DNA of 64,000 nucleotides, from positions 1 through 64,000 of the IMG/VR virus record IMGVR_UViG_3300042311_000577; one strand, 5' to 3'. Positions 3,411 to 55,100 of the stretch are shown here, piece by piece. The notes below the pieces were generated by a model. That model had not been told where the DNA came from, did no database searches, and worked only from the letters and a program-made list of their open reading frames with translations. This DNA is from a virus. The position numbers and the translations under genes are program-made. Within the stretch, counting starts at the first letter, position 1, and the number at the start of each line of letters is the position of its first letter.

Positions 3411-3452
3411 GAAGTGTATTCTGTGAATATACTTTTCCTGACCAAATGAGAT

Positions 3453-3472
3453 AGGGGGAGAAATCCCCCTTT
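3453..3472 (+). terminator. hairpin, probable intrinsic terminator
   Basis: AGGGGGA-GAAA-TCCCCCT, short T-tail. Confidence 0.6.
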
Positions 3473-3558
3473 GTCATGTTTAGCTATATAGTGCTAAATA
3501 TTTTTGGTTTAAACTTTCTATGTTAGATTAAATAACTTACATTTACTAGCATATTTTT

Positions 3559-3840: not shown

Positions 3841-3857
3841 TTTTAAACTACACACTA

Positions 3858-3895
3858 CCTCTAAAGTGAGTAATTAGGGGAACAGTATCTACTCA
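3858..3895 (+). promoter_or_regulatory. predicted H-type pseudoknot in the 5' leader
   Basis: Stem 1 CCTCTAA(3858-3864)/TTAGGGG(3874-3880); loop TGAGTA(3867-3872) pairs with TACTCA(3890-3895). Confidence 0.5.
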
Positions 3896-3935
3896 AAAAA
3901 TCAATTTATTTATTAATCATTTTAAATTTTTAAAG

Positions 3936-40000: not shown

Positions 40001-40083
40001 TTATCTAAGATCTCATTATATTGACCAATTATACCTTTTTTTCTTAAGTCTTCTAGTACAGTGGATTTAGATTCACAAAACAT
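34021..40083 (-). CDS. giant virion/ejection protein with zincin-like motif and LysM domain
   Basis: HEFAH with downstream EE; LysM YIQGETLEDIAKTYGVTVEELKTRN; hydrophobic segments near the C-terminus; adjacent to the RNAP gene. Confidence 0.8.
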   Translation of the reverse strand: MFCESKSTVLEDLRKKGIIGQYNEILDKAEFDKFNKEFTRFIELTYPNIKLGAGDYFFDTPYEIETSYPYSSRYWRDDVASKLYIQPNDALFEVLDDERMRADIKEELQDYDILNEPDSVFPEDESLDPMFMRQSGYVSPINQDSATKPMMDYSSRIEKNIDEATIRNARAKEAAIGLAKKMSEKLNVGFINITADEATKILSIRKKQYRGEPAFYFGKTVYVVGDNVNFDTVLHEFAHPFLRALYNENKDLFENLYSLLMTTEEGKIIKNHLINEYPELSEGDYLFKEEALVYALQAKAVTKVTDDFETSDFKSFMNKLLLALKDILKKIFGGKKLSKLDVDTTIDELADMFLDETFEFENGKITNDDLLGFLRDYKQMAVQLTKDVQGDKIQESLNNVFAASRLINEKARNFRTRSPMYQKMLKEALFQKGSNELLPRVLRSLSDYQTVTNTKNMSVDEVLDNVIDAEERRITDLTNKSRSFINTLSVINNISKNMYKDLDTLQKTNSYDSRDAIALLFLYRNSIRSWNDTFESFDELLRSEEDFDIDKENDLVTFVNDVKNNLLRADKKIRDIYKENAVNFYVEVTGYMNDFLAEELGKNLKNALTNKLSDTEVKDLYDKAISQKMLDPKVANEVYNNLQKKGIEAKYVKKFIDEYNNFLLNQDVITDGLSGKLKDVSWFNRFFESYTSSNDPIVGGLAIFINNQRTEANNRALEKSYMFRRKLVPLLESVGYSTLDPRKLLKMMTFEDSVLYIDPKTKEAKERKVNSFLDKFGNGWRYEQSLLEYNLEKAWSSENKDDIRKAVDEYRQFQKDYMHNDYVPEVYEKDNVFDKYGEVGKMAWLARKMALDAYNNEVNELTDELERYQKYSTLQALWEDYKNLYSLKYADGSSKVDDPENGIYDLSITNILLEYRDSTKDFYEFLPRTGSLQTSFNEFLSLQDANNVTGDELEQAKKDWVKQNIKTAYDEKFYESRTNLIKQLKELQGKITNVIGEEFDMANAYNDIFNLMYAYKDEQGQPIPENLGEDKIKTIKELNQKIIDYKAKFDTRTGLSTEETEELNIYMAAIKKDPTRLTKDQKSRYVDLLEKQAKSGLSIGEISSIQAIYAELSSLTQKIPTEYYVDSLNEHLQRLDVAPVTADTVTDFINSSEMKNLLAEDAKISEWFKNNHVYRKVKNRKTRKMEIKWERSMVNSISVPKNPEYYKTVELYNEMTGKTETFNGVPNARHSIYRIKDKYRTGYNPSTEEVVLEVGTHIDNKGQFLPRMYEPGTKNSAKSGKFMNQDYLRLMNQPNDPRFKLLEFLKEAHLSFQEDKSNNSKLYLDVPRYVLRDTLSRIRGGNSKERVSQIGAGFVQYLKDTFAESVDEVENEHNYQRDNNLEEYRLVNTDLNAEEISYIPVTGTYNMEINNTDPDIIRGMFKYLLSLENQSQLLQSLPLVNSILETLEDPKNAPKNPNTYSKNIKKINGKLVQSVLKGAANNRAGQIRSLIDREYHGVQYSGQGSSVYLDKFVGLIQKISSRASLAINIPSDLKNRYGQIVQNMIEAAGGENVSVKDLAKARIWAAQSMLEWSANSIYTKGVPALSSQLIEMFDSAFKFKDDFGRSVSRNFVKDMMNGEWMMSVRKNLEMEATLQLFGGFLNGQKVEQKLSNGKTITINYKDAWQLNKDTGIAELLPGVDPAWSNKTIYHTYIQGETLEDIAKTYGVTVEELKTRNKVVNAIEFEAGQEIIIAKSEKFKQFRNKFQGVSHRLYGAYDDFAQAEGNLYLPFRMFTFMRKWFIPMLTNRWGARVEIENGKFWKPKFQKRYDWMTGKPTIGFYLNAYLGMKELVTSKGKYWAYMDEQQKADMIRALSESLAIITFALLASMVFGYDPDDKDRFEKMRERSGALGTDDFKTFGFIQNHTLLLLLGTQMETSAFVPLPSLAGVNLGGDDYIKMASTTTSAFGNTISLYAKIYQDLGRLLVGSEKAFYSRKEGEYWWEQKGRPKVIGHLLKTVGVTGSSGQVDKAIEGLENAGKIK

Positions 40084-43000
40084 TATATACAGTTTAATGG
40101 GTTATTTTCTCCTTCAAATTTAGCTAAAATTTCCGCATCTGTAATTGGTTGATATTTAGCAACTTGAGAACTAACTTCTTTACTAAACTCTGAACCAGGA
40201 TTCAGATACTGAAATTCTTCAAATAATCTCTTACTTAAATATACAAATAATTCTTGAGGCATCAAAGAAGGATCACCATAACCATTAATAGAAAATGCAA
40301 CATTACCACCATCTTGAATAACTTGATTGATTTCAGCAATAGCTTTTTCAATCTCATTTTGTAGAGCTTTGTAGTATTTAGGATCTGTTTTACTAAAAGC
40401 ATCATCAATATTATTTTGACCAGTTATTATACCTATAGAAGCACTATTAGCAAGTTTTTTCAATTGTACTTGTCCAGTTAGTTTTTTAGAATTAAATTCT
40501 TTCTCTGTAAGTTTTTCAAAATTTTGTCTTTGCCCAAGACTAAATTGATATACAAAAGTTACATCCGGATTATTATCTACAATATACTTATATGCTTTTT
40601 CAGTTCCTGAAAGATCATTATAAACAAATACCTTTGGATTGATAGTAGAGATAAGATTTTTCCTTTCTACCAAGTTTTCTGAAGCTGGTTTAGAAAGTTC
40701 ATTTTGTTCTTCTGCTAATTGATAATAAATAAATGCCGGATCAGATTTAATACTACGGTTAATAGGATTTAGATTTATATAATCTTTTTGATCTTTTTCT
40801 CTTCGGAACCATCTTTCTTTATCATCTAAAGGTGATAAAGTAGATTTACCTCTGTAAATATCATTCCAAGAACTGAATATATTTATTATATTTTCATTTG
40901 GTTTTGAATTTTCATATGTGAAAAAGTCAACTGGTATTACAGTATCTGCTGTAATATCAACTTTATTTCCTTTTGAATCTTTTACTATAACAGCTCCTTT
41001 CAAAGCCCATCCTTGTTTATTTCTAGCAGTTACTTCTACAGTATATCCAGGTTTAGGTATATAATAAGCATAAGTTGTGTATGCAGTCTTTGACCAACCA
41101 AAATGTACTGGTACGGCATTTAATAAATTAAGAGCTTCTTCTAAATTTTCTAAATTTTGCTGATTTGTACCATCAACAATAAAATCAAGATCATGAATAG
41201 GCTCCTCGCTTGGTCTATATATAACTTCACCTTGACCTGCTATTGCTAATGAACCTACAAGAGGAAACTTAAGATCTTTAGCAAAAGTATCAATAATCTT
41301 TTTAGCTAGAGGGTTATTTTTAATAGCCTCGTCATAGTTTAATTTTGGTCTTTTTTCAGTTATATCTGCTATGTATTCTGTATTACCAGCAAGTACATTC
41401 AGTGCAATATGGTCTGCAATTCTTGCATTATAATTCATAGTTTGAAATAATGCAAAGTTTTTAAACATCTTAAGTATTAAATCTTCAATAGCTTTTATTA
41501 AAGTTTTAATAAGTGATTTGTCTAATCCAGCAGCTTCATAGTTTGATACAAGAGATTTGGATATTAATTTACCCATTGCTTCAATCTTAACTTGCTCTTC
41601 ATTTTTATATAAAGGCATATATTCTGCATATACAGAATCATACTCATCCCAAGTTGTAATATTTCTTGATAATTGTTTAATTGCCTTATGATTAGGGCCC
41701 ATTAACATCACAAGCATATGACCTACTTCTTCAGGTATAGTCTCTGCATTTCTATCTTTTGTATACCAGATAAGTTTATTAAGCACATCAGTTGCACCTA
41801 AAGCATCAACTCCTAATTTATCTTTTAGTGTTTCAAACTCTTTGCTTTGTACACCAAATTGTTTTACAAACTTCAATAAGTAATCATCTAATTCCTTAAT
41901 AGCTTTACTAGCATTTCTAGCATCTTTTAATTGGAACATTGGTTCTTCTAATTGATCACCTGTTTCATCAGATTCTGTTGGAGGTAATGGTAAAACTTCA
42001 TTTGAATTAAGACTCTTATCTACATTTAATCCAGTAAGATAATTTTTAAATCTGTATCTGTCTCTGTTTGCTTGACTATTAGTTTTTTCAAACTTATTTT
42101 TAAAATCAACTAGCAATTGAATCTTGTTAGGTGAAGTTAAAAACTTAGCAGTTTCCTGATTCATAATTTCTAAGAACTTATCAAAATCAGTTATGTTTAT
42201 CATGTTATACTTACTCTTATTTGTACCAGATTGCATCATTGCAACATAAGTAATATTAGAGAAGAAATCACTGATTCTATCATTCTCAGTTTTGTCTTTT
42301 ACTTTAATAACATTTCTATCTCCTAGATCCTTTAAGTTCTGTGTATAAGTGTTAGACTTAAAGGAGTTCATATCTTTGTCATCTAGGTAGAAATTAAACA
42401 TTGTTTTGTTGTTATTGATATCCGGGATCATTCTAGATAGTACAGGATAGTCACCTACAAAATCATTTTTATACATAGTTTTTATTCTATCAAGTCTTAT
42501 AGAATAAGCTTGATCATTATCATAGAATAAGTGATATGGATTTAATGTATTATCTAGGGCTCTTGAAGTTAAGATTTTCTCATAAGTATATCTTCTGTTT
42601 TTTGATTCATCTGATATAACACTAGTCTTTTTAGTATTTATAAGTTCTTTTTTGAATTCTTGACTTTTAACTATCTCAGCCATTGGCATAACATGTCTAA
42701 GATATTCTCTCTCAATTACAAACCGTAGATACTCTTCTTTATTTGATGGAGTATTTTTACCAAAATGTCCTGGTTTAAGTGGGAATAAACCACGAGACTC
42801 ATAGCTGTTTTGAGCTTCTGATCCTTCCAAGTAAGCTTTATCAAAGAATTCTTTTTCAATTTGTACTTTATCTACTACTACTGTAGGTACACCTTTTTCT
42901 TCAGTAACAAATGCACCAAACTTAAGACCTGCAGCAGGAGTTACTGAAATAGAATCTTTTAAATTATATGAACTATATTCTTTATCAAGACTATACTTTC

Positions 43001-46000
43001 TTACAGCATTTTGAAATAAATAACTTAAAATATCATTTCTAAATACTATAGGAAACTTTTCTCTATACATTTTACCAAATACAGTTTTTAAAGCTGCCGT
43101 ATTAGTAAAATCAGATAAATAATTTTGTATATAATCTTGTATGTCTTCATCATATCTAAACTTAAACAATGGTTTAGCTAAGCCTTTTACCATTTTTGTA
43201 TTAAAGAATGAACTAATGATAGAGTCATATAGCATTCCGGTTCTTAAATCCGGATCTATTTTTGTTTCTGCTGCTAATTCATCTATGTCAGATTCAGCTT
43301 GAATTACTTGACCTATATCAGTATCAAGAGCTGTATCTGGATTAGCTGCCATCTTAAGTCTGGTAATACCTTCAATTTGTTTTTCAATAGTAAGATAATG
43401 TAAGAACATTGTTCTAGATAGAGAGCTCATTGCTTTTTCAGGATTATCTTTACTATCCTTGATTAAGTTAAGCATTTCTTCTTCTGTAAAATGTCTATCA
43501 CCCCCTTCTCTCTCATTAGCATCAAAATAAATATTAAGCATTTTTTCACCAGCCGTATATCTAGATAAATCATCCGGAAGCATTTTATCAAAGTTTCTAG
43601 CTATAACATTTGTTGCTGCTTTGAAAGCTACACCAATGTCTTTTGCAGATTTTCTTAAAGGTTCAGCAAAAGTACTATTAATCAATCTTCTTTCTTTAAC
43701 ATACTGTCTTACAAGTGGTTGAGATACAAAATATATTGCTTCTTTTACAGGAACACCAGTCTTAAGTAAGTAAAGAAGTATAGGTGCAACTTCATAGTTA
43801 CCTTGAACAAAGAATACCCAAGCATCTTTTTCAACATCTACCCATCCATTCATTAATTGAGATATAATATCAGCTACTTTATTATTACCATCTACATCAT
43901 AAATGTTAGAAATAGATATAACATCTTCACCATTTTTAGTAGTTTTATGATGTCTTAATCCTAAGAATGATTTTCTAAATTCTTTTTCATTTGAATGCAT
44001 ATACACCGCTGGCATAACAGCACCCAATGAGTTAAAGATAACATTGAATGTATTTTCAATAGCTCCAAGTCCTAATGTTCTCTTACCAACTACATTTGAC
44101 TCATGTTTGTATAAGTTGTAGCCAGCCTCAAATATTCTTGTAGGACTAATAACTTCTTTTTGTTTACCATTTTTATCTGGAGCACTTAAATTTGGAGTAT
44201 CAGACATTATATTTTGTAAAGGATTATAATCCATTACATATTCAGCTAATTTATCTGCTATAGGTTTAACCAAGTAAGTACCATTAGGAGTAATAAGTGA
44301 AACAAAATTCTGTGGTAATTCAAGAATACTTCTAATATCATTAATAAGTTCATTCTCAAGACCTGCTTTTTGTGCAGCATATATCTCTTCTTTAGTCATA
44401 TCATACTTAGAAGGATCCTTTAATGCTTCATAAAAATCTTCAGATTTTTCAAACATTGATTTTTTGATATTACCCTCAGGATCAATACTTGTCATAAAGA
44501 TTGATAACTTATCAATATCAAAGTCAGCTCCGGACTTAGCAACAATTTCTGGTGGAGGAATAATAATATTACCAGCTTGTGGTGGAAGGAAGTGGTATAC
44601 TTCCATGAACTCCATAGAGTTAAGACCTTGTACTGGAATCCTAACACCGACCATTGTTATTGCCTTTCTATTACTAGCATCATTATCATTTAACCATTCA
44701 TCATCTTTTATAGCTTCATTTAGTCTATCCAAAGTAGAGATAGGTTCACCTTTATATTCTAGATTAAGCAAATTCTCATAATCTCCCTGAAGTGAAATAG
44801 CAACTTTCATTGCTGTTGTTTTACCATCAGCTCCTTTATGATATGTAGGTAAGAAGTTTGAACCCATGTACTTCTTGACAGCAGCATCTCTTGCTGCAGG
44901 ATTCATTTTATCAAGATCTAATTCTAAATTAATTAATCCATCATAGAATCCTGAAGACTTTTGCACTAAAGGTTCTCCTTTTACTTTTTGTTTAATGATT
45001 CTTTTATTAATAACTGATAATAAAAGTTTTTCAATTTTAGCAGCTTCAGGATGTAAAGACAAATCAAATCTTAATTCACCTTCTTCAGTTACATCAATAA
45101 TATCAATTAACTTATCACTATAAACATCATCTCTAGTGAGAGTGTCTCTGATCATTTTAGCTAATTTGGCAATACTATCTTTATCAACCGGAATGTATTC
45201 ACCAGCTTCATTAACTTTAAAACCAAGTTCATCCGTAAGTTCATTTTTAAGTAACTCAGTATATGCACTTACTCTATCTACATAATTATTAACAAGTGCT
45301 ATAACTTTAGGATCCTTAGATGTAATCTCACCATTTTCATATAACCCTTCTAAAATCATCTTTCTCATCTGAGTAGAGAATATTGATTTTTCTTTGTATT
45401 TTGAATTTACTTCAGTTTGGTTCTTTAAAAATTCCGCAAAGACTACATTCTTAGTAAATTCAACTGAAGTATCTATATTACCATTTTTATCAATAATCTC
45501 ATCACCGTTACCTATGTGTCCAACTTTTTCACCAGTTTCCATTAAAACATAATGTACATTTTGCTTAAGCATCATGTCATGTATCTGACCTAATTTAGTA
45601 TCAGCAGTATGTACTGTTGGGATTATTGGAGCTAATGAAAATTTATGAAAAGATACAACAGGAAGACCTTCTGTTTTTATATTACCATAGTACTGTAATT
45701 TATATGGTGGAAAGAATTGTTGAATATCTGATCCACTAATAATATCACCCTTTACAATTTTTCTATATAGATCTTCTTGTTGAGCTGACCAATTACCTTC
45801 TAAATTTTTAAGCATTCTATATGCTTCAAAGTTAATCCATCCTTGACCATCAGCAATTTTCATATTACTATAGTCTTTTAATACAGTTTCTGAAAGTTCT
45901 TTTGCTAATCTTGTAGCTTCTTTTTTAGATTTACCCGCTGCAATATATCTTTTTGTATAATCTTCAATTAAAGCTTCAGAATATTCCGGTTTATATTTTG

Positions 46001-49000
46001 ATTCTTTAATAACTTCTTCTTTAATAATAGCAGTATTTAAAGTACCATTGTAAGCTTCTAACTGATAACCTTGTTTAGCAGCATACATCTTTTCAAATAA
46101 AGGACTGTTTATATACATCCTTGCTCTTAAGTCAGCTCTAAAACTTCTACCTCCGGAACCTAAACCAGCATTTCTTTTATGGAACTCTTCTTTATCATGA
46201 TTATACTGTACTGTATCACCATATGCAAGAATAGTTGTTTCAAAGTTATGAATCCAAGAATTATATGTATAGGCTTTAACAAGCATCTTATCAATAAGAT
46301 CCTTACTTATTTGAGGATCTTTAACCATATCATAAAGACTTTGATCTACATATTTTGCATCTTCAAGTCTAGAATAATTTGCTTCTGATAAAGTATTAAA
46401 GTATCTAATAACATCAGCTTTTACTTTCTTTCTTAAATCAGGATTCTCATTTATAATTTCTTTTAAATTAAAGTCTTGAGTATTATAATATCCTGTATTT
46501 AAAGCTTCATTATTAACCTCCTCTATATTCTTATCTATTATATCATATAGTAAACCTTGAGTTTTTGGTGATAATACATCATCAAATGCAGTAAATGCTT
46601 CACCAGCCATCACAGTGTTACCTGTATCTTTCCTTACTACATCTCTGTTGTATGCAGTAAAGTTTTTAAAGTAATTAGGTGAAGATTTAAATCTGAAAAT
46701 TCTACCCGCTTCTGCAGCAATATAACCAAGAATGATATTAAAACTTTCAGTTTCTCCTTGATTATTATCAGCCACAGTATTTTTAGGACTAAAGGCCATT
46801 ACATCTACATAGAGATTACTTGATTTTTTACCTGCATATGTTTTAAGCTTTTTAGCTCTTATGTTCATTGCAGTTTGTTTAGAAGCATGTCTCATGAACT
46901 CTTGTACTCCAGACTGCAGCATTGTATGTAATTCTTGTAAAAACTTACTTGTTACATCAGTACTTGCTGTTGAAGTTCCAGTAGAATCATTTGTCTCTCT
47001 ATTTATAATTTGGGTACCGCCTATATTCTCTAGTAATAATTCTGCTCCTGGTAACTTTTCTCCATATGTTTCAGACATTTGATTTAAATCAAAGATTGAA
47101 TTTAATATCATAGAGAATGGAGATGCTGGATTATTTACTTCATTTAACCATTTCATATGCTGGAATCTACCATTTGGATCAGCACTATATGAGGTTAATT
47201 CTTGCCAGTTCTTAGCTTTCTTTATAGAGGTAACTACTCTTGTGATAGTGTTATCTACAAATTGTTCCCAAACTTTATTTTTCTCCGGTGTTAATACACT
47301 GAAGTTTGAATATCCATCAGAAAATCTGTTTTGTAATTCAGCTAATCTTGTTACTTTATTTTTTACATCTCTTGATTTATCACCAGCTGCTTTTTCAATT
47401 GCTGATGGAAGACCATTAAGTAAGTAATACATAGGGTCTTTCTTGAAATCATTTGCTGCAGCATTTAAAGATATATCATTTGACTTAGCTGATAAGTAAA
47501 CTAATCTAATATTGTTATATATGAAATCAATATTATATTTAGCAGCAAATGGTTTTTTCTTATCTCTAACAACAGCTCTAATTTCTGCACTTGTCATATC
47601 CATTTGAATACCTAAAGCAGCTAGAAAATCAACAGCTTTAGTTGGATCCAGTTGTTTATTTAATGAAAAATCATTTATAATTTTATCTACATCCAATATA
47701 TTAAATCCATACTTTTTATCTTTAACTATATATGGATTTGTTGCTGTGTCAGCAATATTAAAATTTGTAGTCCAATCATTTATAATCTTATATACATCAA
47801 AATTAGCAGCTGCCAATCTTGATTCAAATTTTGATTTTTCTGGTATTCTTTTACCGTCAACATACTTTTGTTTTTCTATTATAGTTTTGTTGATGTTTAA
47901 CTGTATGTAAGGTATGACAGGTTTTTTAAGATCTTGCCAGAAGTTTGTCTCAGACTGAAATTCTGTTTTATTATTATATGCACCAGGTCCCATAACATAT
48001 GGATTAGGAAGCATATTTAATATTTGTATAAATTCAGGATTATTTGGTATTCCTTGAGTTAGCCTATCATGCATGTCTTGATAGTCAAAAGAACCTTGTA
48101 AAGTTCTTGCAACTCTATTCCACATATCACTCATAGGCTCAAGAATTGGCAAACCAAACTCATCAGTATCATATACATAATTCTCAACACCATTGGCATC
48201 TTTCTCTAATAAGTAATCCTCATTATTTTTTCTTTTGAGTTTGAAAATACCAGACAACATCATAGTTGTATCATCTGTAGCTAACTGTTTGGCAGAAATA
48301 CTATTACCTTCTTTTGTTGAAAATAAAGTTGTTGTAGGATCTTCTGTTTCATCAACATAAGCATCTTTAAGGACACTAAATCTTGACCGTTTCATATGAA
48401 AAGCTACAACCCCTTTATCAGTTTTTTTACTTAATGCTTCACCTATCACACCGTAGTTCTGTACAATTTTAGTGAGCAAATTAAGTCTATCAAAATGTTT
48501 TTGTTCTAAGATATAATCTGGATCATTACTCAATACATTTTTTTGAGCAATTTCTCTAGTAACCTCATGTTGTTTTTCAAGTAAGGCTTTTACTTGTTTT
48601 TCAAGTGTTGTATATAACGATTGTCTGTTAGTAACATTACTCAATAACTTAACTGCACCACTCGTTGTATTATACCTAGTATTATATTGCTGAAATGTTC
48701 TAGCCATTAATACATCTAACAAATCAACAATTTTACTTGATTCACTATCTGTTATTTCATTATAACCAGCATAAGCATCATCTAATGGAGTTACTGTATT
48801 TTTTGCACTATTTAATCTTTCAAATCCAGGCATTAGATTATTTGCCGCATTCTCTGTGTCAATAGTAAAGTTACCGGTATGTAGCTTGTCATAATATTCT
48901 TTAACTAAAGGAATATCATATAGTCTAGTTATATCTCTGTTAGATGTTTTACCAAAGAAGAACTCAAGTATTTTTTTGAATTTATCATATACTCTTTGAA

Positions 49001-52000
49001 TAAAACCTTTTGCTTTTTTTCCATCTACAAGATACTCAATAAAACCTTCAGCTAATTCTTCCTCAACCTCTTTATAACTTAATGTTTCCCATTTAGGATA
49101 ATTACGTACTTCATCATAAAGCTTTGTTTTTTCTTCTCTGGTTAATACTAATTGAGAAAATGCATGCCATGATTCATGATACAATGTAATAGGTAATGCA
49201 TCTCCATATAATTCAATCTTAGCAAGAAAACCTTTTTTACGTGAAGGACTGATTACTTCTGATAATTTAGAAGCAGATGCTATAAATGTACCATAAGCAT
49301 CAGAGTTATAAATTAAAGATAATCTCTCTACAGAGACTTCATTCTTAAGTGGACTAGACTCCCACCACTTTAATACTTCATTCCATGATGCTTTATCACC
49401 ATATATCTGAGTCATTAAAGCAGTTTGTCTTTTATTTCTATCCAGAGTTACATCTGGAAAATCCATACTTAGATCAAGACCATCAAGTAGATTATCAATA
49501 TTCATTTTATTGATCTTAGCATCTACTACTTTTATTTCTTCTTTTGTTAACTTAGGTTTTACTACTTTAGCAATCTTTGTAGAGGTATCAACCGGTTTCT
49601 CAACCTTAGTTGTTTTTCTTTTAAACTCAGCTGACTTTTTATTATAAAATCTACTTAAGAATTTTGATTTAGTATTGGGTGAATTCTGATATCCTTTAGT
49701 TAAATAAGGAGCAGAAGTTTTTAATGCATAGTCTTTAAATGCAATTATGTCTACAGGAATACCTAGTTTTTTTGCAGCTTTGATTGACGCTTCAGCTATA
49801 CCAGTTTGACCATTACTAATGATTTTACTAATTGGGTATTTTTCTGAAACTTTACTTAATATGTTATAGATATATTTATCTACATCTTCTTGAGTATATC
49901 CTTTTTTATATAAGGCTGCAATATCATTACCTACAACATTTATTATGTTTCCACGGATTGCAGAAAGATTTTTTACAATTAAATCAATAGCCTCATCTGA
50001 AGGATTAAATCCTTTAGGTGCATCTTTCTTAGAACCAAGAATTACACTATGCCATTTTTTTTCTTTACTTGCTCTTTGTTGGATTATTTTTTCATCACCC
50101 ATTGTAAAGTCTGTACCTAGACCTAAAACAATATCAGCTTTATTCATATTTGAAACAAGCACTTTTCCATTAGGCAACTTACTTGCAAAAGCTGAAAGTT
50201 TAAATCCTTTTTCTTCTTCTTCTCCTTCTTCAGTTTCTTTTGCTTTTTTGATTGGTTTAGCATCAACTTCATCTAAGACTAAAGAATCATCATAAGGCAT
50301 TCCTAATTCAATAAAATCATCAGCTTGTGTAGTAAAATCATAAGGTACTGCAAATTGAAGATATGAATTCAAACCTGCAAAATAATTCATGTTAGGTTTT
50401 GAATAATCAACTTTCATATATGGTTTAATGAAATCAAAATAATCTTTCTCAACTTTTCTAATGATAGGATTACCAGATCTATTAGTTGTAAACTCATAAT
50501 CAGTAAAAGTTACTCCTTTTTGTATGGCTCCATCAACAGCAAACTTTCTCATGTAACTCATACTAGCAGGATACTGAGCTGTTATATTTCCTTGAGAATC
50601 AGTAAATTCTTTTACTTTCATCAAATGATTAAATATTTTATTCTCAGCATCTTCTGATTCTAAATCTATAGATTCAGATTGTTTTGTTTTTCTATCATAT
50701 AATGATACAGAAAGTTTATTCTGATTTAAAACTTGTATTAACTCAACAGTAATACCATTACCAGAAGTCTGATTAGATAAGAATGTTTCATAGTACTCTA
50801 ATTTTGCTTGAGGGCTCAAAGGCTCACCATCTGATAATAAATCAGTAGTTAGAATTTTTGCAATGTTTCTAGCAATTTTTTCATCTATGTCCATTCTTTG
50901 TAAATAGATTTTATTATCTATTGCTACTCCTGAACTAATTTTACTTGTCATAAAATAACTTACACCCTCCATACCAGTATCATGGATATAAATCATTTCT
51001 ACATCATCTTTAAAGTCAGTATTTGAAAGTAGTTCGGATTTTTTTTCTACAATACCATAACTACCACCAACAATAGGTAATAAAACATATGCATCTTTTT
51101 CAAGTTCTAAAGCTTCATTTAGTCTTTGAAGATCATTCATGTTTTGTGTCTGCATGTTTTTATAATCTGCATATGCAGCATCTCTTTCTTCTTGACTATA
51201 TATTTTACCGTTATCTAAAGCATTTTTAATATCTTGCTTAACTAAGTCTTGTGGAGAAATCAAACTATATAGATAGCCTGCTCTATTTCCTAGATAAAGT
51301 TTACTATTATAATTTACTACAGGTCTTATATATTGATAAACAATTCTTCCACCGGTTTCAGTTACATTACCAGCATCATCAAATCTTATAGGATTACCAG
51401 CTCTATCTGAAATAATACCAACATTTATATTGTAGGTTTTATTCTTTGTTAAGAATGTAGTATCATATTCTGTTAGATCTTCTTTGTCTAAACTTCTGAT
51501 AGACTGAGCTTTAAGCATTATAGGAGTATCTCCTAACATTACTTTATCTGTCTCAGTTTTATTTCTAGAAAGCCATATAACATTCTTAATGACTTTGTCA
51601 AACAAGACTTTCTCATTGTCAATCTCATTTCTTTCTTGTTCAGTCATTGTCTCTGGATTCTTTGCAACTGCAATTTGACCAGAGAGTTTTAATGGATTAT
51701 CTACTTTAGCTTTTTCCTGTACTGATGACCAAGGTACTATATCACCATTATCATTTTTTTGAGGAATTGCTTTAGATTCTCTATTACTTTGTTTGATTTT
51801 AGAATCAATTTGTTTTTTATTAGTTTTAATTCTTTTGGGTTGAACAAATTCTAATACCTTGTCAATATTATCCCATTCAACAGATAAATCATATACAGGA
51901 TCAAACTTAAAATCTACTGCTTTACTTTTTAAATAAGTTCTGACTTCTGGATCCTTAGCAACCTCTATTAAGATATCCGGAACAGCTTGCGCATACAGTA

Positions 52001-52169
52001 AACCATTTGGCTCATCTTTAAATTCTTTATATACTTCTTTTATGAATTTATTAAATTCAATATTATTAAATGGAGCAAGATCTGGATTATCCATCCGATC
52101 TTTTATTTCTCCATAGACAATACTATATAATGCTACTAAATCATTTTCAGCATACAGTTGACAGGCCAT
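40083..52169 (-). CDS. virion-packaged two-barrel (DPBB) RNA polymerase, crAss-like, with accessory domains
   Basis: Catalytic loop GADFDIDKL (DFDID at 44511-44525) preceded by GVRIP.QG..SM; ADGQGW and HKFS motifs; 4028 aa. DFDID is the catalytic motif of phi14:2 gp66-type RNAPs. Confidence 0.88.
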   Translation of the reverse strand: MACQLYAENDLVALYSIVYGEIKDRMDNPDLAPFNNIEFNKFIKEVYKEFKDEPNGLLYAQAVPDILIEVAKDPEVRTYLKSKAVDFKFDPVYDLSVEWDNIDKVLEFVQPKRIKTNKKQIDSKIKQSNRESKAIPQKNDNGDIVPWSSVQEKAKVDNPLKLSGQIAVAKNPETMTEQERNEIDNEKVLFDKVIKNVIWLSRNKTETDKVMLGDTPIMLKAQSIRSLDKEDLTEYDTTFLTKNKTYNINVGIISDRAGNPIRFDDAGNVTETGGRIVYQYIRPVVNYNSKLYLGNRAGYLYSLISPQDLVKQDIKNALDNGKIYSQEERDAAYADYKNMQTQNMNDLQRLNEALELEKDAYVLLPIVGGSYGIVEKKSELLSNTDFKDDVEMIYIHDTGMEGVSYFMTSKISSGVAIDNKIYLQRMDIDEKIARNIAKILTTDLLSDGEPLSPQAKLEYYETFLSNQTSGNGITVELIQVLNQNKLSVSLYDRKTKQSESIDLESEDAENKIFNHLMKVKEFTDSQGNITAQYPASMSYMRKFAVDGAIQKGVTFTDYEFTTNRSGNPIIRKVEKDYFDFIKPYMKVDYSKPNMNYFAGLNSYLQFAVPYDFTTQADDFIELGMPYDDSLVLDEVDAKPIKKAKETEEGEEEEKGFKLSAFASKLPNGKVLVSNMNKADIVLGLGTDFTMGDEKIIQQRASKEKKWHSVILGSKKDAPKGFNPSDEAIDLIVKNLSAIRGNIINVVGNDIAALYKKGYTQEDVDKYIYNILSKVSEKYPISKIISNGQTGIAEASIKAAKKLGIPVDIIAFKDYALKTSAPYLTKGYQNSPNTKSKFLSRFYNKKSAEFKRKTTKVEKPVDTSTKIAKVVKPKLTKEEIKVVDAKINKMNIDNLLDGLDLSMDFPDVTLDRNKRQTALMTQIYGDKASWNEVLKWWESSPLKNEVSVERLSLIYNSDAYGTFIASASKLSEVISPSRKKGFLAKIELYGDALPITLYHESWHAFSQLVLTREEKTKLYDEVRNYPKWETLSYKEVEEELAEGFIEYLVDGKKAKGFIQRVYDKFKKILEFFFGKTSNRDITRLYDIPLVKEYYDKLHTGNFTIDTENAANNLMPGFERLNSAKNTVTPLDDAYAGYNEITDSESSKIVDLLDVLMARTFQQYNTRYNTTSGAVKLLSNVTNRQSLYTTLEKQVKALLEKQHEVTREIAQKNVLSNDPDYILEQKHFDRLNLLTKIVQNYGVIGEALSKKTDKGVVAFHMKRSRFSVLKDAYVDETEDPTTTLFSTKEGNSISAKQLATDDTTMMLSGIFKLKRKNNEDYLLEKDANGVENYVYDTDEFGLPILEPMSDMWNRVARTLQGSFDYQDMHDRLTQGIPNNPEFIQILNMLPNPYVMGPGAYNNKTEFQSETNFWQDLKKPVIPYIQLNINKTIIEKQKYVDGKRIPEKSKFESRLAAANFDVYKIINDWTTNFNIADTATNPYIVKDKKYGFNILDVDKIINDFSLNKQLDPTKAVDFLAALGIQMDMTSAEIRAVVRDKKKPFAAKYNIDFIYNNIRLVYLSAKSNDISLNAAANDFKKDPMYYLLNGLPSAIEKAAGDKSRDVKNKVTRLAELQNRFSDGYSNFSVLTPEKNKVWEQFVDNTITRVVTSIKKAKNWQELTSYSADPNGRFQHMKWLNEVNNPASPFSMILNSIFDLNQMSETYGEKLPGAELLLENIGGTQIINRETNDSTGTSTASTDVTSKFLQELHTMLQSGVQEFMRHASKQTAMNIRAKKLKTYAGKKSSNLYVDVMAFSPKNTVADNNQGETESFNIILGYIAAEAGRIFRFKSSPNYFKNFTAYNRDVVRKDTGNTVMAGEAFTAFDDVLSPKTQGLLYDIIDKNIEEVNNEALNTGYYNTQDFNLKEIINENPDLRKKVKADVIRYFNTLSEANYSRLEDAKYVDQSLYDMVKDPQISKDLIDKMLVKAYTYNSWIHNFETTILAYGDTVQYNHDKEEFHKRNAGLGSGGRSFRADLRARMYINSPLFEKMYAAKQGYQLEAYNGTLNTAIIKEEVIKESKYKPEYSEALIEDYTKRYIAAGKSKKEATRLAKELSETVLKDYSNMKIADGQGWINFEAYRMLKNLEGNWSAQQEDLYRKIVKGDIISGSDIQQFFPPYKLQYYGNIKTEGLPVVSFHKFSLAPIIPTVHTADTKLGQIHDMMLKQNVHYVLMETGEKVGHIGNGDEIIDKNGNIDTSVEFTKNVVFAEFLKNQTEVNSKYKEKSIFSTQMRKMILEGLYENGEITSKDPKVIALVNNYVDRVSAYTELLKNELTDELGFKVNEAGEYIPVDKDSIAKLAKMIRDTLTRDDVYSDKLIDIIDVTEEGELRFDLSLHPEAAKIEKLLLSVINKRIIKQKVKGEPLVQKSSGFYDGLINLELDLDKMNPAARDAAVKKYMGSNFLPTYHKGADGKTTAMKVAISLQGDYENLLNLEYKGEPISTLDRLNEAIKDDEWLNDNDASNRKAITMVGVRIPVQGLNSMEFMEVYHFLPPQAGNIIIPPPEIVAKSGADFDIDKLSIFMTSIDPEGNIKKSMFEKSEDFYEALKDPSKYDMTKEEIYAAQKAGLENELINDIRSILELPQNFVSLITPNGTYLVKPIADKLAEYVMDYNPLQNIMSDTPNLSAPDKNGKQKEVISPTRIFEAGYNLYKHESNVVGKRTLGLGAIENTFNVIFNSLGAVMPAVYMHSNEKEFRKSFLGLRHHKTTKNGEDVISISNIYDVDGNNKVADIISQLMNGWVDVEKDAWVFFVQGNYEVAPILLYLLKTGVPVKEAIYFVSQPLVRQYVKERRLINSTFAEPLRKSAKDIGVAFKAATNVIARNFDKMLPDDLSRYTAGEKMLNIYFDANEREGGDRHFTEEEMLNLIKDSKDNPEKAMSSLSRTMFLHYLTIEKQIEGITRLKMAANPDTALDTDIGQVIQAESDIDELAAETKIDPDLRTGMLYDSIISSFFNTKMVKGLAKPLFKFRYDEDIQDYIQNYLSDFTNTAALKTVFGKMYREKFPIVFRNDILSYLFQNAVRKYSLDKEYSSYNLKDSISVTPAAGLKFGAFVTEEKGVPTVVVDKVQIEKEFFDKAYLEGSEAQNSYESRGLFPLKPGHFGKNTPSNKEEYLRFVIEREYLRHVMPMAEIVKSQEFKKELINTKKTSVISDESKNRRYTYEKILTSRALDNTLNPYHLFYDNDQAYSIRLDRIKTMYKNDFVGDYPVLSRMIPDINNNKTMFNFYLDDKDMNSFKSNTYTQNLKDLGDRNVIKVKDKTENDRISDFFSNITYVAMMQSGTNKSKYNMINITDFDKFLEIMNQETAKFLTSPNKIQLLVDFKNKFEKTNSQANRDRYRFKNYLTGLNVDKSLNSNEVLPLPPTESDETGDQLEEPMFQLKDARNASKAIKELDDYLLKFVKQFGVQSKEFETLKDKLGVDALGATDVLNKLIWYTKDRNAETIPEEVGHMLVMLMGPNHKAIKQLSRNITTWDEYDSVYAEYMPLYKNEEQVKIEAMGKLISKSLVSNYEAAGLDKSLIKTLIKAIEDLILKMFKNFALFQTMNYNARIADHIALNVLAGNTEYIADITEKRPKLNYDEAIKNNPLAKKIIDTFAKDLKFPLVGSLAIAGQGEVIYRPSEEPIHDLDFIVDGTNQQNLENLEEALNLLNAVPVHFGWSKTAYTTYAYYIPKPGYTVEVTARNKQGWALKGAVIVKDSKGNKVDITADTVIPVDFFTYENSKPNENIINIFSSWNDIYRGKSTLSPLDDKERWFRREKDQKDYINLNPINRSIKSDPAFIYYQLAEEQNELSKPASENLVERKNLISTINPKVFVYNDLSGTEKAYKYIVDNNPDVTFVYQFSLGQRQNFEKLTEKEFNSKKLTGQVQLKKLANSASIGIITGQNNIDDAFSKTDPKYYKALQNEIEKAIAEINQVIQDGGNVAFSINGYGDPSLMPQELFVYLSKRLFEEFQYLNPGSEFSKEVSSQVAKYQPITDAEILAKFEGENNPLNCI

Positions 52170-52179
52170 TTTTAATTAT

Positions 52180-55100
52180 TTAAGGAGTGGTACAATTATC
52201 AATATTATTATTTTTAATGATATTCTTTGCTGCAGCAAATCTACTCTTCTTATCACCGGCCGCTTGTTGTTTAGCAGCTTTTAAAAGTTCTTGATTTTGA
52301 GCTAAATTTTCAATACTACCTTTAGCTAAATCTGCAGTAGACTTATCTACATCTGAAACTATTGTTTTTTCTGTTTCTTGTTTAATGGCCTCTTCCGTAT
52401 TCTTAATAAAATCTGATTTTATTTTATCCTCTGTAATTGTTTTTACAGAAGCTTTCTTACCTTTAGTTCTATTAACAATTTGCTCAATAACAATCTTACC
52501 GTCTTTAACTTGTTTCACTTTTACAGGTTCATTATTTTCAATTCCAAAGATAGGATTTTTACTGATCAATGTGTCCCCTGGTTGTAAAATATCTTCAGAT
52601 ACACTAGTATTTAACTCTTGTTTTTTATTTTTATTAAGTCTTGTAATTACATCAGCAAATGCTAGATTTGGTTCTTCACTTATTAAGATAAGTCCATCCA
52701 TGTAAGCTTCTTTTAAATCTTCTAAGTTTGTAGCAGAGTTCATTTTTTTGATAATATTTTTAAACTCTTCTTTTGTAAATGTTTCTGCTTCAGTATTGAA
52801 TATAGCTGCAGATGTACCTTTTAATAAAGCATCTATCTCAGCATCAATATCAAATTTAACAGGAGGTGTTCCTTCTTTAACAGGAGTTCCTTCTAAAGTA
52901 GCAAGTTCATTTTCTAATTGTTCTAGCTTTTGATTTAATTTTTTAAGCTCTGGATTTTCTTGTATAGCTCCTTTTACAGTTGTATAAGCAGTTTTAGAAA
53001 CTTTCTCAATATTCTTTTTAAGTTTTGCAATATCAGTTTTTAACTTTTTAATTTTTGCAGCTACTTCTTTTTCATCTTTTTCTACTGGTTTTACAGGTTC
53101 TGATTTTGCTTTACCTTCTTGTTTTAATTCTTCAGGTAAATTTGGTTCAATCATTTCAATACCATACTTTGCAAGTACCTCTGGTGCTACTGGCTCTAAT
53201 GGTGCTAATACACTTTTCTTAAGATTTTTAAGTTCATTCTCAAGTGCAGTGATAGCTTTAGTATCTTTAGTTTTGGCTTTTTCAAGTGTAGACAACTTAG
53301 ATTGTAGATTTCTAATTAGAGGGGCATTTACCTGATTTGCAGCTGAGACAGCGTAACTTATATTACCGTCCATATCAGTTTTAGTTTCTACAGGAAGTAT
53401 AGATATAGTCTTAGCTAAGATACCAGTCATGTTATATAACAATGTTCTATAAATAGATAACTGAATCCTATAGTCTAATTTTTTACTATACTTATTATCT
53501 TCATCACTAAAGTTAGTCCAGTTCTTACTTGTTTTAACATCTATAATAACCAAGTCTCCAGTTTCTCTATTGAATGCTATTAAGTCCATGGCTCCTACTA
53601 ACCCCAATGAGTTAAGTAAAGTTTTATCAAATATTAAAACATCACTTGATAAGATTTTGTATTTACCGTCTATAACAGAATCTTGAAGCTCAGTAATTAT
53701 TCCATTATCACCAAATAGGTTATCATAAGATAATTGATTTATTTTAGAAGACTTTTCAGGCTTCATAAATTTACCATCAGGACCAATTCTAAATGACTCT
53801 CTAGTCATATCATCAACAGTATTACCTGCTATTGTAGACTCATCATATGCCACTTTTTGCACTGCTTCTTTCAAAGACTCTCTTGTAAGATTACTTGATA
53901 AAGCTCCTCTAATGATATCAAGTTTTCTTTGACTATTTAACTGAGCATAACTACCTCTTTTAATCTCATTCTCTAATGAGGTCATGAAATAATTTAATTT
54001 CTCTTCAGATTTTATCTCATCATTTTTAATAATTTCATCAAATAGATTTAAAAGTGTAGGTCCTTTTTTACTTGTTTTTTCATCTTCATTAACAGGATCA
54101 TAACCAGGAAATTCAGGTTCATTTTTTATATCACTCTTAATTCTAGATGTAATTTTTGTAACTCTTTCTGGTCTTTCCTCTTTATCAGTAAATTTATAAC
54201 CTATTACATTTTTACCATCCATTATTCTTTCAACTTCATTTTGTCTATTGACAACCATTTCATTGAAGATTGTGAAAGTAATAGCTTGATTATTTTTTTC
54301 TGTAATATAATTAGATCTTAAATATTTAATGTATTTATTTAATTCAGCTATATCATTTTTAATTGCAGTTCTAGTACTGTTATTTAATTTATTACCATCA
54401 CTGTCTTTGTTTGCATCAAGCATTTTTTCAAGTTGATCTCTTGTCATTTTTAATGATGTCAAACTATATTCAGTAATAGCTTTAGTTAACTCAATATATT
54501 TAAGATTAGGAAGAGCTGATTCAAAATCTACAGGTCTTTCATTGTACATTTTGATCCTATCACCTTTTGTTGCAAACCAACTATTTCTTAATTTCTCATA
54601 TTCAAATGAGTTAATATCTTTTAGATCAGCTCGTTTACCCAAACCTTCTGGTTCAGGGGCAGTTAAAAATATATCAAATTCTTCCTGTAATTCAGCTTTT
54701 AAATCATTTGGTAATTCATCCCAAGGTGTATCAATACTTACTTCAGATTCAGTTTGTTTTTTAGCAGCTGTCTTAGGTGTTCTAGGAGATTTACTAGGCT
54801 CTTTAATTTTATTCTCTACAGCCTCTATTAATCCTTCATATTTCTTCTCAGTGATTTCAATTTGTTTTTGATAATCTTCCCAAGATTTTGTTTTTTGAAC
54901 AGGCGGTGTTGGATCAAAGTCTGCAGCTGGAGTTTCATTTTGTAATTGCAATAACCTTCTATTGAGTAATATTGGTAATGCATATTTATTTTGAGCAGTA
55001 GTTAAAGAAATGTTTTGTGCTAGTCTTACTGACTCAAGATCATTTGGATCAGTATCACTTTCATTAAACAATTTTCTAGCATACTTCTTTAATTTTTTAC

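What the first reader, a model, noticed from the sequence alone, without database searches (positions are those of the whole stretch)
40075..52194. The only cysteines of three giant virion proteins sit at adjoining termini: possible head-to-tail disulfide chain
Seen (by-eye scan of the translations): the 2145-, 4028- and 2020-aa proteins appear to contain just four Cys in about 8,200 residues, and the 1146-aa protein none. They lie at the 2145-aa C-terminus (DNCTTP, codon 52192-52194), the RNAP N-terminus (MAC, 52161-52163), the RNAP C-terminus (LNCI, 40089-40091) and the 2020-aa N-terminus (MFC, 40075-40077). The two outer ends have none. This is the pattern needed to link the three proteins tail-to-head in gene order. 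Established: the injected N4 virion RNAP is Cys-free. Inference: terminal disulfides or metal bridges could concatenate the cargo so it is packaged stoichiometrically and threaded out in order, then released in the reducing cytoplasm.
Basis: partly seen in the sequence, partly recalled or inferred. Interest (0 to 1): 0.78.

Follow-up and report, generated by a model that had tools for sequence, protein, structure and literature searches.

The report
Terminal cysteines chain crAss cargo proteins
Three giant proteins that this crAss-like phage most likely packs and injects, its RNA polymerase in the middle, have no cysteine except one at each end that faces the next protein, a rule kept by hundreds of relatives that points to still untested end-to-end disulfide links tying the cargo into one thread.

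Summary
The 2145-, 4028- and 2020-aa proteins hold four Cys in 8,193 residues, at -4, 3, -2 and 3. All four face a neighbour; the outer ends and the 1146-aa protein have none.

It is strongly conserved:
- 118 of 120 polymerase homologs start M-A-C, and 120 of 120 end in Cys at -1 to -3.
- 82 of 84 upstream homologs have a lone C-terminal Cys.
- 81 of 86 downstream homologs have an N-terminal Cys.
- There are 8 other Cys in about 800,000 residues.

The 4028-aa protein is a crAss-type two-barrel RNA polymerase, not N4-type. In 12 genomes, including phi14:2, crAss001 and p-crAssphage, all 16 real breaks of the chain carry a Cys pair. Fused junctions in Fpv1 and Lbo-JY46 carry none.

A complex model docks the polymerase tail on the next protein's N-terminus: 0.71 against 0.00 for controls. 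Cryo-EM of cyanophage A4 shows such a disulfide (PMC12002296).

Best reading: head-to-tail disulfide chain of about 936 kDa, confidence 0.6, unproven chemically. This scan has noted the same pattern on other crAss-like genomes. I found no paper describing it for Crassvirales.

The parts
52180..58617 (-). g2145: first link of the chain, 2145 aa and 243.5 kDa, with a PD-(D/E)XK exonuclease-like stretch at residues 1669-1746; its only Cys is residue 2142
   Evidence: In 84 homologs, 82 have one Cys within the last 8 residues, there are 0 internal Cys, and 83 have no Cys in the first 12 residues.
52192..52194 (-). Cys2142 codon (TGT), position -4 of g2145
52161..52163 (-). Cys3 codon (TGT) of the polymerase protein (M-A-C)
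   Evidence: M-A-C is present in 118 of 120 homologs; the other 2 are N-truncated. The Cys is invariant in alignment A1.
40083..52169 (-). g4028: crAss-type two-barrel virion RNA polymerase fused to accessory domains, 4028 aa and 459.4 kDa; Cys only at residues 3 and 4027
   Evidence: tblastn matches phi14:2 g066 'catalytic RNA polymerase subunit' at E 4e-21. The A1 profile matches PDB 6vr4_A at E 8.5e-19.
44511..44525 (-). DFDID catalytic motif of the polymerase (residues 2549-2553)
   Evidence: (invariant in 23 of 23 sequences)
49164..49178 (-). HExxH zincin-like motif in g4028 (residues 998-1002)
   Evidence: (H998, E999 and H1002 invariant). This region matches the C-terminal part of crAss001 gp47 and the middle of fused cr108_1 and cr10_1 proteins.
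40089..40091 (-). Cys4027 codon (TGT), position -2 of the polymerase protein
   Evidence: A C-terminal Cys at -1 to -3 is present in 120 of 120 homologs.
40086..40667 (-). C-terminal 194 residues of g4028 used in the complex model; residues 4009-4028 form the modelled interface
40075..40077 (-). Cys3 codon (TGT) of g2020 (M-F-C)
   Evidence: An N-terminal Cys (position 3, 4, 7 or 10) is present in 81 of 86 homologs; the 5 without it are N-truncated.
39694..40083 (-). N-terminal 130 residues of g2020 used in the complex model; residues 1-13, 37-45 and 99 form the modelled interface
34021..40083 (-). g2020: last link of the chain, 2020 aa and 233.1 kDa, with an HExxH motif at residues 235-239 (39367-39381) and a LysM domain at 1694-1732 (34888-35004); its only Cys is residue 3
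   Evidence: None of 86 homologs has a Cys in the last 12 residues.
58607..62047 (-). g1146: Cys-free 1146-aa protein just upstream, probably further cargo and not part of the Cys-linked chain
   Evidence: It is also Cys-free in the close relative L002.

Best explanation
The window is the first 64 kb of a complete 122.8-kb phage distantly related to Crassvirales. Its three giant genes are the counterparts of the virion cargo trio known from phi14:2 (gp67-gp66-gp65) and crAss001 (gp47-gp50-gp49).

Proposed mechanism. The C-terminal tail of each protein docks on the N-terminal domain of the next. The lone Cys near the C-terminus (-1 to about -11) then forms a disulfide with the lone Cys at position 3-5 of the next protein. 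This ties g2145, the polymerase and g2020 into one unbranched thread of about 936 kDa and 8,193 residues.

Why the layout fits. The links sit within a few residues of the chain ends and every other Cys is purged. The thread therefore stays linear and cannot be knotted by stray disulfides, so it can pass partly unfolded through the tail channel, each protein pulling the next. In the host cytoplasm the bonds would be reduced and the polymerase and its partners set free.

In evolution the Cys pair stands in for a peptide bond. Lineages with fused genes lack it at the fusion, and lineages with split genes have it at each split.

Shown here: the layout, its conservation, its tracking of chain breaks, and the modelled docking. 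Inferred: the bond itself, when it forms, the order of ejection, and release by reduction.
For: (1) Layout and statistics are.

(2) Conservation down to 23-41% identity:
- 118 of 120 polymerase homologs have Cys3.
- 120 of 120 polymerase homologs have a C-terminal Cys.
- 82 of 84 upstream homologs have a C-terminal Cys.
- 81 of 86 downstream homologs have an N-terminal Cys.
- Outer ends are free of Cys in 83 of 84 and 86 of 86.
- Only 8 internal Cys occur in 801,787 residues.

(3) In 12 genomes, 16 of 16 true breaks carry a facing Cys pair:
- window: 2 breaks
- phi14:2: 2
- crAss001: 2
- cr128_1: 2
- cr50_1, cr108_1, cr130_1, cr114_1, cr118_1, p-crAssphage, Fpv1 and Lbo-JY46: 1 each
. A thirteenth genome, cr10_1, could not be scored because its partner gene lies outside the fetched stretch.

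(4) Fused junctions lack Cys.
- Fpv1 gp33 (4401 aa, upstream part fused to the polymerase) has only Cys -2.
- The Lbo-JY46 2748-aa protein (its C-terminal part is gp49-like) has only Cys 4.
- cr50_1 gp059 has no Cys near its fusion zone at about 1714-1888.

(5) This is not a DNA-level junction signal. In crAss001 and cr128_1 the gp47-like gene lies on the other strand, away from the polymerase start, yet it keeps its C-terminal Cys.

(6) The break sits at a different place in the collinear architecture.
- The zincin HExxH region lies about 1000 residues inside the window polymerase protein, but about 180 residues before the C-terminus of crAss001 gp47.
- Neither protein has a Cys at the other's break position.

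(7) The complex model of g4028 3835-4028 with g2020 1-130 scored ipSAE 0.71, and the best of 3 controls scored 0.00.
- That mark was reached by 51 of 78 solved complexes and 2 of 108 mismatched pairs.
- The runs agree in at least 62% of contacts, and the partner pLDDT is at least 70.
- The interface includes residues 4024-4028 and residues 1-3.

(8) Precedent. In the A4 virion cryo-EM, the C-terminal helix of gp27 inserts into gp26 and is fixed by a Cys1715-Cys5 disulfide (PMC12002296, passages). In the A-4L record these are the only Cys of the 1717- and 1114-aa proteins.

(9) crAss001 virions contain inter-subunit disulfides in the tail and in gp57. gp47, gp49 and gp50 are in the virion and must partly unfold to leave it (PMC10172136, passages).

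(10) Some crAss-like phages fuse the three proteins into one polyprotein (preprint 10.1101/2020.03.07.982082, passage).
Against: - No disulfide between these proteins has been observed in any crAss-like phage.
- The proteins are made in a reducing cytoplasm, so the bond would have to form in the capsid or after release. No thioredoxin-like or sulfhydryl-oxidase-like gene stood out among the CxxC ORFs of this genome, which I inspected by eye only without a family search.
- Gut crAss-like phages live without oxygen, and their cargo proteins tolerate internal Cys (cr130_1 gp79 has 25), which weakens the 'no stray disulfides' argument for them.
- Some terminal Cys have no facing partner: p-crAssphage gp47 at -2 and the Lbo-JY46 674-aa protein at 5.
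- Two of 84 upstream homologs (P0178, P0179) end without a Cys. They look truncated, but I could not check their contigs.
- The complex model was made without alignments. Chain 1 had a low pLDDT (52-57). A pass shows the model's confidence, not binding.
- No sequence similarity to A4 gp26 or gp27 was found, so the A4 precedent is an analogy.
- Copy numbers in the virion are unknown.
Confidence: 0.6

Rival explanations
1. The facing Cys bind a metal ion (Zn, Cu(I) or Fe) together, forming a reversible thiolate clasp between termini rather than a disulfide.
For: The same pairing pattern would be expected. Acidic residues are common next to the Cys, in motifs such as E-E-D-P-F-K-C and M-x-C-E-S, and could add ligands. 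A metal clasp could form in a reducing cytoplasm.
Against: There are only two thiols per junction and no conserved His or second Cys nearby. The one solved analogue, A4, shows a disulfide.
Confidence: 0.1
2. The Cys stay reduced in the virion. The disulfides form only after ejection, in the oxidising host periplasm, to lock the ejected proteins head-to-tail into a trans-envelope conduit.
For: Lack of Cys in ejected proteins has been explained in print by passage through a periplasm that catalyses disulfide formation (PMC11445570, passage). g2020 carries LysM and zincin-like motifs that fit a role in the cell wall.
Against: In A4 the bond is already present in the virion. The polymerase must end up in the cytoplasm, so a locked conduit would trap it.
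Confidence: 0.1
3. Each terminal Cys acts on its own and not with the facing one. It might be a cysteine-switch ligand that keeps the zincin-like HExxH sites latent, or a tether to another virion part such as the portal or tail.
For: HExxH motifs are invariant in g4028 (998-1002) and in g2020 (235-239). crAss001 tail parts do use disulfides. Unpaired terminal Cys exist in p-crAssphage gp47 and in the Lbo-JY46 674-aa protein.
Against: This does not explain why the Cys come in facing pairs at 16 of 16 breaks, why outer ends are bare, or why fused proteins with no other Cys (Fpv1 gp33, Lbo-JY46 2748 aa) need no switch.
Confidence: 0.08
4. The pattern is chance, a gene-calling artefact, or a nucleotide-level signal for translational coupling at gene junctions.
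For: Both window junctions are tight: a 1-base overlap (TAATG) and a 10-base spacer. 27 of 31 terminal Cys codons checked in other genomes are TGT, which is expected in AT-rich DNA.
Against: The probability of the placement by chance is 1.4e-12. The pattern is conserved in 290 homologs. It is kept in crAss001 and cr128_1, where the genes are not adjacent or co-directional. The distance of the Cys from the stop codon varies from -1 to -11.
Confidence: 0.01

Closest known systems
Cyanopodophage A4 (Anabaena phage A-4L, Saffermanviridae) ejection proteins gp27 and gp26 (PMC12002296)
   Same: Two consecutive genes for large ejection proteins. The upstream protein has its only Cys at -3 (..NPCQF) and the downstream protein its only Cys at 5. 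Cryo-EM shows the C-terminal helix of gp27 inserted in gp26 and fixed by that disulfide. The window's modelled junction looks alike.
   Different: A4 has one link, not two. It has no polymerase in the chain, and its pentameric pre-ejectosome is T7-like. No sequence similarity to the window proteins was found. In the passages I read, the A4 paper reports the bond in that one virion and states no wider rule.
Virion cargo trio of Crassvirales: phi14:2 gp67-gp66-gp65 (polymerase structure PDB 6VR4) and crAss001 gp47-gp50-gp49
   Same: The polymerase core is homologous, and the genome layout is the same (terminase, portal, capsid, tail, cargo, polymerase). The Cys layout is also the same: phi14:2 has -1 | 3 and -2 | 3; crAss001 has -3 | 5 and -9 | 5, with one extra internal Cys.
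   Different: The window proteins are about twice as long and only about 23% identical in the polymerase core. The breaks sit elsewhere in the architecture. The texts I could search do not mention these Cys. The phi14:2 preprint has 0 occurrences of cysteine, Cys or disulfide. The crAss001 paper discusses disulfides only for the tail, hub and gp57.
Cys-free ejection proteins of Schitoviridae (N4 gp50-gp51-gp52, DEV gp71-gp72-gp73)
   Same: A giant injected virion polymerase with neighbouring ejection proteins, and near-total suppression of Cys, noted in print (PMC11445570).
   Different: The N4-type polymerase is T7-like and unrelated (no hit). Those proteins have no Cys at all, so there are no terminal pairs and no covalent chain.
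Fused cargo polyproteins of other crAss-like phages (Fpv1 gp33, cr50_1 gp059, p-crAssphage gp44, Lbo-JY46 2748-aa protein)
   Same: The same modules in the same order, joined by a peptide bond where the window has a Cys pair.
   Different: These are one polypeptide, with no Cys at the fused junction in Fpv1 and Lbo-JY46. The phi14:2 preprint supposes such polyproteins are cleaved.

Membership tests
crAss-type two-barrel virion RNA polymerase (phi14:2 gp66 family) | DFDxD catalytic motif | tested here: met
   DFDID at residues 2549-2553, invariant in 23 of 23 aligned homologs.
crAss-type two-barrel virion RNA polymerase (phi14:2 gp66 family) | Sequence homology to the solved enzyme | tested here: met
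   The A1 profile matches 6vr4_A at E 8.5e-19. tblastn matches phi14:2 g066 at E 4e-21. The single sequence alone gave no PDB hit.
crAss-type two-barrel virion RNA polymerase (phi14:2 gp66 family) | Packed in the virion and injected | not testable with these tools
   Inferred from its position at the end of the structural module and from proteomics of phi14:2 and crAss001 (annotation notes; PMC10172136 passage).
Crassvirales-like phage | Portal, major capsid protein and large terminase of the crAss type, in crAss gene order | tested here: met
   PHROG hits for portal (E 3.9e-95), terminase (E 3.3e-54) and major head protein (E 8.9e-33). The portal matches 130 phage records, mostly crAss-like, at 22-33% identity. 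Formal placement in the order was not tested.
A4-type head-to-tail disulfide between consecutive ejection proteins | Lone Cys near the C-terminus of one protein and a lone Cys near the N-terminus of the next | tested here: met
   Window: -4 | 3 and -2 | 3. A-4L: -3 | 5.
A4-type head-to-tail disulfide between consecutive ejection proteins | C-terminal tail of the upstream protein docks on the N-terminal domain of the downstream one | tested here: inconclusive
   The model supports this: ipSAE 0.71 against 0.00 for the best of 3 controls. That mark was reached by 51 of 78 solved complexes and 2 of 108 mismatches. The runs agree in at least 62% of contacts, and the partner pLDDT is at least 70. 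It is a model only.
A4-type head-to-tail disulfide between consecutive ejection proteins | The disulfide bond is observed | not testable with these tools
   Needs gels, mass spectrometry or cryo-EM.
A4-type head-to-tail disulfide between consecutive ejection proteins | Homology to A4 gp27 or gp26 | tested here: not met
   blastp found no hit at E 0.01 or better. hhalign of A3 against gp26 gave probability 1.1%, and A1 against gp27 gave 0.5%. So it works like A4 but is not shown to be a relative.
Schitoviridae (N4-like) ejection cassette | T7-like single-subunit vRNAP; proteins wholly free of Cys | tested here: not met
   There is no match to N4-type polymerase in the PDB searches, and the polymerase is of the two-barrel type. 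Terminal Cys are present here, whereas the DEV paper reports almost none in that family.
Zincin metalloprotease domains in cargo proteins | HExxH motif and a family match | tested here: inconclusive
   HExxH is invariant in A1 (998-1002) and in A2 (235-239). No Pfam family was hit. The phi14:2 preprint reports a zincin-like domain in gp65 orthologs.

The most novel reading that the evidence does not exclude
In the whole crAss-like assemblage a terminal Cys pair acts as a post-translational substitute for a peptide bond.
- The giant cargo polyprotein can be split or fused at any point during evolution, because each new break is mended by a disulfide.
- The virion therefore always injects one unbranched thread of nearly a megadalton (936 kDa here), with the RNA polymerase in the middle.
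- Reduction in the host cytoplasm is the switch that cuts the thread and sets the polymerase free to start transcription.
Probability: 0.45. Interest if true: 0.82.

Novelty: new variant of a known kind. Interest (0 to 1): 0.72.

Why it matters
Crassvirales are the most abundant phages of the human gut. How they deliver a polymerase complex of more than half a megadalton through a narrow tail is an open question, which the crAss001 atlas leaves at 'partly unfolded'.

A covalent head-to-tail chain would explain several things at once:
- how the stoichiometry and order of the cargo are fixed;
- why these proteins are purged of Cys;
- why the genes can be fused or split freely;
- how the polymerase might be released or activated by the redox step on entry.

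It is directly testable in cultured phages (phi14:2, crAss001, Fpv1, Lbo-JY46) with gels and mass spectrometry. It would also extend a bond seen once, in cyanophage A4, into a general rule for injected phage proteins.

Tried and rejected
- Searches with single sequences gave little. The g2145 C-terminal 799 aa had no match in the phage records. The polymerase N-terminal 1000 aa matched only a small accessory domain. PDB searches with the single proteins gave nothing for g4028 and g2145. Only longer or profile queries showed the polymerase relationship.
- Nucleotide-level explanation: rejected because of the gene layout in crAss001 and cr128_1.
- Codon check: 27 of 31 terminal Cys codons were TGT, which says little in AT-rich genomes.
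- Redox enzyme: I looked by eye for a phage redox enzyme among 11 CxxC-bearing ORFs under 400 aa. Nothing thioredoxin-like stood out, and I ran no family search on them.
- Homology to A4 gp26 and gp27: not found.
- Fold of g2020 1-460 without an alignment: mean pLDDT 40.4, unusable, so I made no fold search. Complex prediction 'pass' caveats are given with the score.
- Possible shift of junction 2: g4028 3409-3573 matched cr108_1 gp052 142-313 by blastp (E 5.6e-11). A family profile did not confirm it, so I do not rely on it.
- The exceptions P0178 and P0179 could not be resolved. Six IMG/VR relatives at 62-64% identity all end in Cys -1. Four of the five that hold the next ORF start it with Cys 5, and one (L023) has the Cys at 17 under my ATG-first call.
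- Supplementary tables of the crAss001 and A4 papers (disulfide table, peptide coverage, alignments) were closed. They may already bear on the terminal peptides.
- The published Nature version of the phi14:2 paper (PMC12127119) is not held. I read only passages of its preprint.
- That the pattern is not in print for Crassvirales rests on searches only.

Full report
**What the window is.** The window is the first 64 kb of a complete 122,794-bp virus record with direct terminal repeats, at 31% G+C.
- Replication genes run on the plus strand: DNA polymerase, helicases, primase and exonuclease.
- The structural genes run on the minus strand, in this order: large terminase, portal, major capsid protein, tail proteins, several large proteins, then the four giants of the finding.
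- The portal matches 130 phage records at 22-33% identity. Most are crAss-like, and the rest include Cellulophaga and Flavobacterium phages and Leptolyngbya phage Lbo-JY46.
- So this is a distant crAss-like phage.

**The observation.**
- g2145 has one Cys at -4. g4028 has Cys at 3 and -2. g2020 has one Cys at 3. g1146 has none.
- That is four Cys in 8,193 residues.
- The other ORFs of the genome hold 375 Cys in 28,495 residues, or 1.3%, so about 107 Cys would be expected.
- The chance that four random Cys fall one in each of the four junction ends is 1.4e-12.

**What the proteins are.** g4028 is not an N4-type polymerase.
- Residues about 1963-2600 match phi14:2 g066, the 'catalytic RNA polymerase subunit' (E 4e-21), and many crAss 'putative RNA polymerase' genes.
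- A profile of 23 homologs matches PDB 6VR4 at E 8.5e-19.
- The DFDID motif at 2549-2553 is invariant.
- g4028 also carries an invariant HExxH motif at 998-1002 and an accessory domain at 673-816.
- g2020 has an invariant HExxH motif at 235-239 and a LysM domain.
- g2145 has a PD-(D/E)XK-like stretch.
- By position and by weak similarities, the trio corresponds to phi14:2 gp67-gp66-gp65 and crAss001 gp47-gp50-gp49. Proteomics has found those proteins in virions (annotation notes; PMC10172136 passages).

- Polymerase family: 120 listed homologs at 41-99% identity. 118 start M-A-C, and the other two are N-truncated. All 120 end in Cys at -1 (52 sequences), -2 (48) or -3 (20). Only 3 other Cys occur in 425,760 residues.
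- Upstream family: 84 homologs at 23-99% identity. 82 have one Cys within the last 8 residues. There are no internal Cys in 177,966 residues. 83 have no Cys in the first 12 residues.
- Downstream family: 86 homologs at 26-100% identity. 81 have a Cys at position 3, 4, 7 or 10, and the five without it are N-truncated. None has a Cys in the last 12 residues. Five internal Cys occur in 198,061 residues.
- In five cases one member of each family shares the same longest-contig length in the tables (63401, 50251, 34874, 74274 and 32433 bases). These are probably the same contigs, and all five trios are complete. That they share a contig is an inference from the equal lengths.

**The rule follows the breaks.** I read the cargo region of 13 crAss-like or related genomes (12 named records and the window).

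| Layout | Genome | Facing Cys at each break |
|---|---|---|
| Three separate proteins | window | -4 / 3 and -2 / 3 |
| Three separate proteins | phi14:2 | -1 / 3 and -2 / 3 |
| Three separate proteins | crAss001 | -3 / 5 and -9 / 5 |
| Three separate proteins | cr128_1 | -4 / 4 and -8 / 5 |
| Upstream part fused to polymerase | cr50_1 | -2 / 3 |
| Upstream part fused to polymerase | cr108_1 | -2 / 5 |
| Upstream part fused to polymerase | cr130_1 | -5 / 5 |
| Upstream part fused to polymerase | cr114_1 | -3 / 5 |
| Upstream part fused to polymerase | cr118_1 | -4 / 3 |
| Upstream part fused to polymerase | Fpv1 | -2 / 3 |
| Downstream (gp49-like) part fused into the second protein | p-crAssphage | -2 / 3 |
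| Downstream (gp49-like) part fused into the second protein | Lbo-JY46 | -1 / 4 |

- cr10_1 has a fused protein with a Cys at -11, but its partner lies outside the fetched stretch, so I did not score it.
- In all, 16 of 16 scorable breaks carry a facing pair.
- The fusions are just as telling. Fpv1 gp33 (4401 aa) has no Cys but the one at -2. The Lbo-JY46 2748-aa protein has none but Cys 4. cr50_1 gp059 has none near its fusion zone.
- In the other fused proteins I did not map the internal Cys against the junction.
- In crAss001 and cr128_1 the gp47-like gene lies on the opposite strand, not next to the polymerase start, yet it keeps its C-terminal Cys. That removes any explanation by translational coupling or a DNA motif.
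- The break itself moves. The HExxH region lies about 1000 residues inside the window polymerase protein. It lies about 180 residues before the end of crAss001 gp47, and in the middle of the fused cr10_1 and cr108_1 proteins. The order 'zincin then polymerase core' is the same in all.
- Neither the window protein nor gp47 has a Cys at the position where the other is broken.

**A model of the junction.**
- The score was 0.71, and the best of 3 controls scored 0.00. That mark was reached by 51 of 78 solved complexes and 2 of 108 mismatched pairs.
- The runs agree in at least 62% of contacts, and the partner pLDDT is at least 70.
- The interface comprises residues 4009-4028 of the polymerase tail and residues 1-13, 37-45 and 99 of g2020, so both Cys lie in it.
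- This supports docking but does not show it. Chain 1 had a low pLDDT (52-57).

**What is known.**
- After I had formed my reading, the scan's own notes showed the same pattern reported on many other crAss-like genomes. They also named a paper, which I checked.
- In cyanopodophage A4, cryo-EM shows the C-terminal helix of gp27 inserted into gp26 and fixed by a Cys1715-Cys5 disulfide (PMC12002296, passages).
- In the A-4L record these are the sole Cys of a 1717-aa and a 1114-aa protein, at -3 and 5.
- I found no sequence similarity between the A4 proteins and the window's.
- For N4-like phages, near-total absence of Cys from the ejected polymerase and its partners is in print. It is explained there by passage through the periplasm (PMC11445570, passages). 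Those proteins have no terminal Cys.
- crAss001 virions do contain inter-subunit disulfides, in the tail, the hubs and gp57. The cargo is said to need partial unfolding to leave (PMC10172136, passages and section 15).
- The phi14:2 preprint says that some phages fuse the three proteins into one polyprotein. It never uses the words cysteine, Cys or disulfide.
- Five literature searches found no paper that describes terminal Cys in crAss cargo.

**Reading.** The best explanation is a head-to-tail disulfide chain, g2145-S-S-g4028-S-S-g2020, of 936 kDa.
- Links within a few residues of the ends keep the chain unbranched.
- The purge of all other Cys prevents cross-links that would block threading through the tail.
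- The fused forms show that one continuous chain is functional.
- Rivals are a metal clasp, bonds formed only in the host periplasm, and independent roles of each Cys such as a zincin cysteine switch. None of these explains the facing pairs, the bare outer ends and the Cys-free fusions as well.

**Points against the reading.** These also deserve weight.
- No bond has been seen in a crAss-like phage.
- Assembly takes place in a reducing cytoplasm.
- Gut relatives tolerate internal Cys.
- A few terminal Cys lack a partner.
- Two homologs, P0178 and P0179, lack the Cys and could not be checked.

**Verdict.** The finding is a new variant of a kind known from one structure (A4). Here it is extended to a three-protein chain that includes the virion RNA polymerase, and to a rule valid across the crAss-like phages.

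Noticed in passing
genome 62103-75219 (window 62103-64000 and beyond; L006): The four large proteins upstream of g1146 end in similar short tails (..GYTFEEI, ..GYIVEELD, ..GGQIKFI), and the next proteins start with similar strands (MKKYRITSIP, MKVRIYKAGG, MRVQITKLP). The same ends recur in IMG/VR relatives.
   Followed up: partly
L015 21824-22115 (cr108_1, NC_055878): The polymerase ORF is interrupted exactly inside the catalytic DFDxD motif by about 290 nt. It is annotated as two genes. The insert is probably an intron, and there is no Cys pair at this pseudo-break.
   Followed up: no
window 49722-50153 (g4028 residues 673-816): An accessory domain (phrog_10774, called 'putative molybdenum carrier' in one phage record) recurs at the very C-terminus of the fused cr10_1 protein (hmmsearch E 5e-35). 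It appears to be a mobile module within the cargo proteins.
   Followed up: partly
L016 4694-7267 (p-crAssphage gp47) and L018 29333-31357 (Lbo-JY46 674-aa protein): Each has a lone terminal Cys (at -2 and at 5) with no facing Cys in the neighbouring gene. The partner is unknown.
   Followed up: no
window 34021-40083 compared with P0205-P0230: Most orthologs of g2020 are about 520 aa longer, with an insert after about residue 125. One is named 'predicted nucleotidyltransferase' by its source. The window's copy lacks the insert.
   Followed up: no
genome 86789-89230 and 62103-64547: An 813-aa protein has 61 Cys (7.5%). An 814-aa protein has ten Cys, six of them in three C-x-C pairs. Both contrast sharply with the Cys-free cargo next to them.
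   Followed up: no
window 38434-38448 (g2020 residues 546-550): A second DFDID string lies in g2020. It is not conserved in the family alignment, so it is probably chance.
   Followed up: partly
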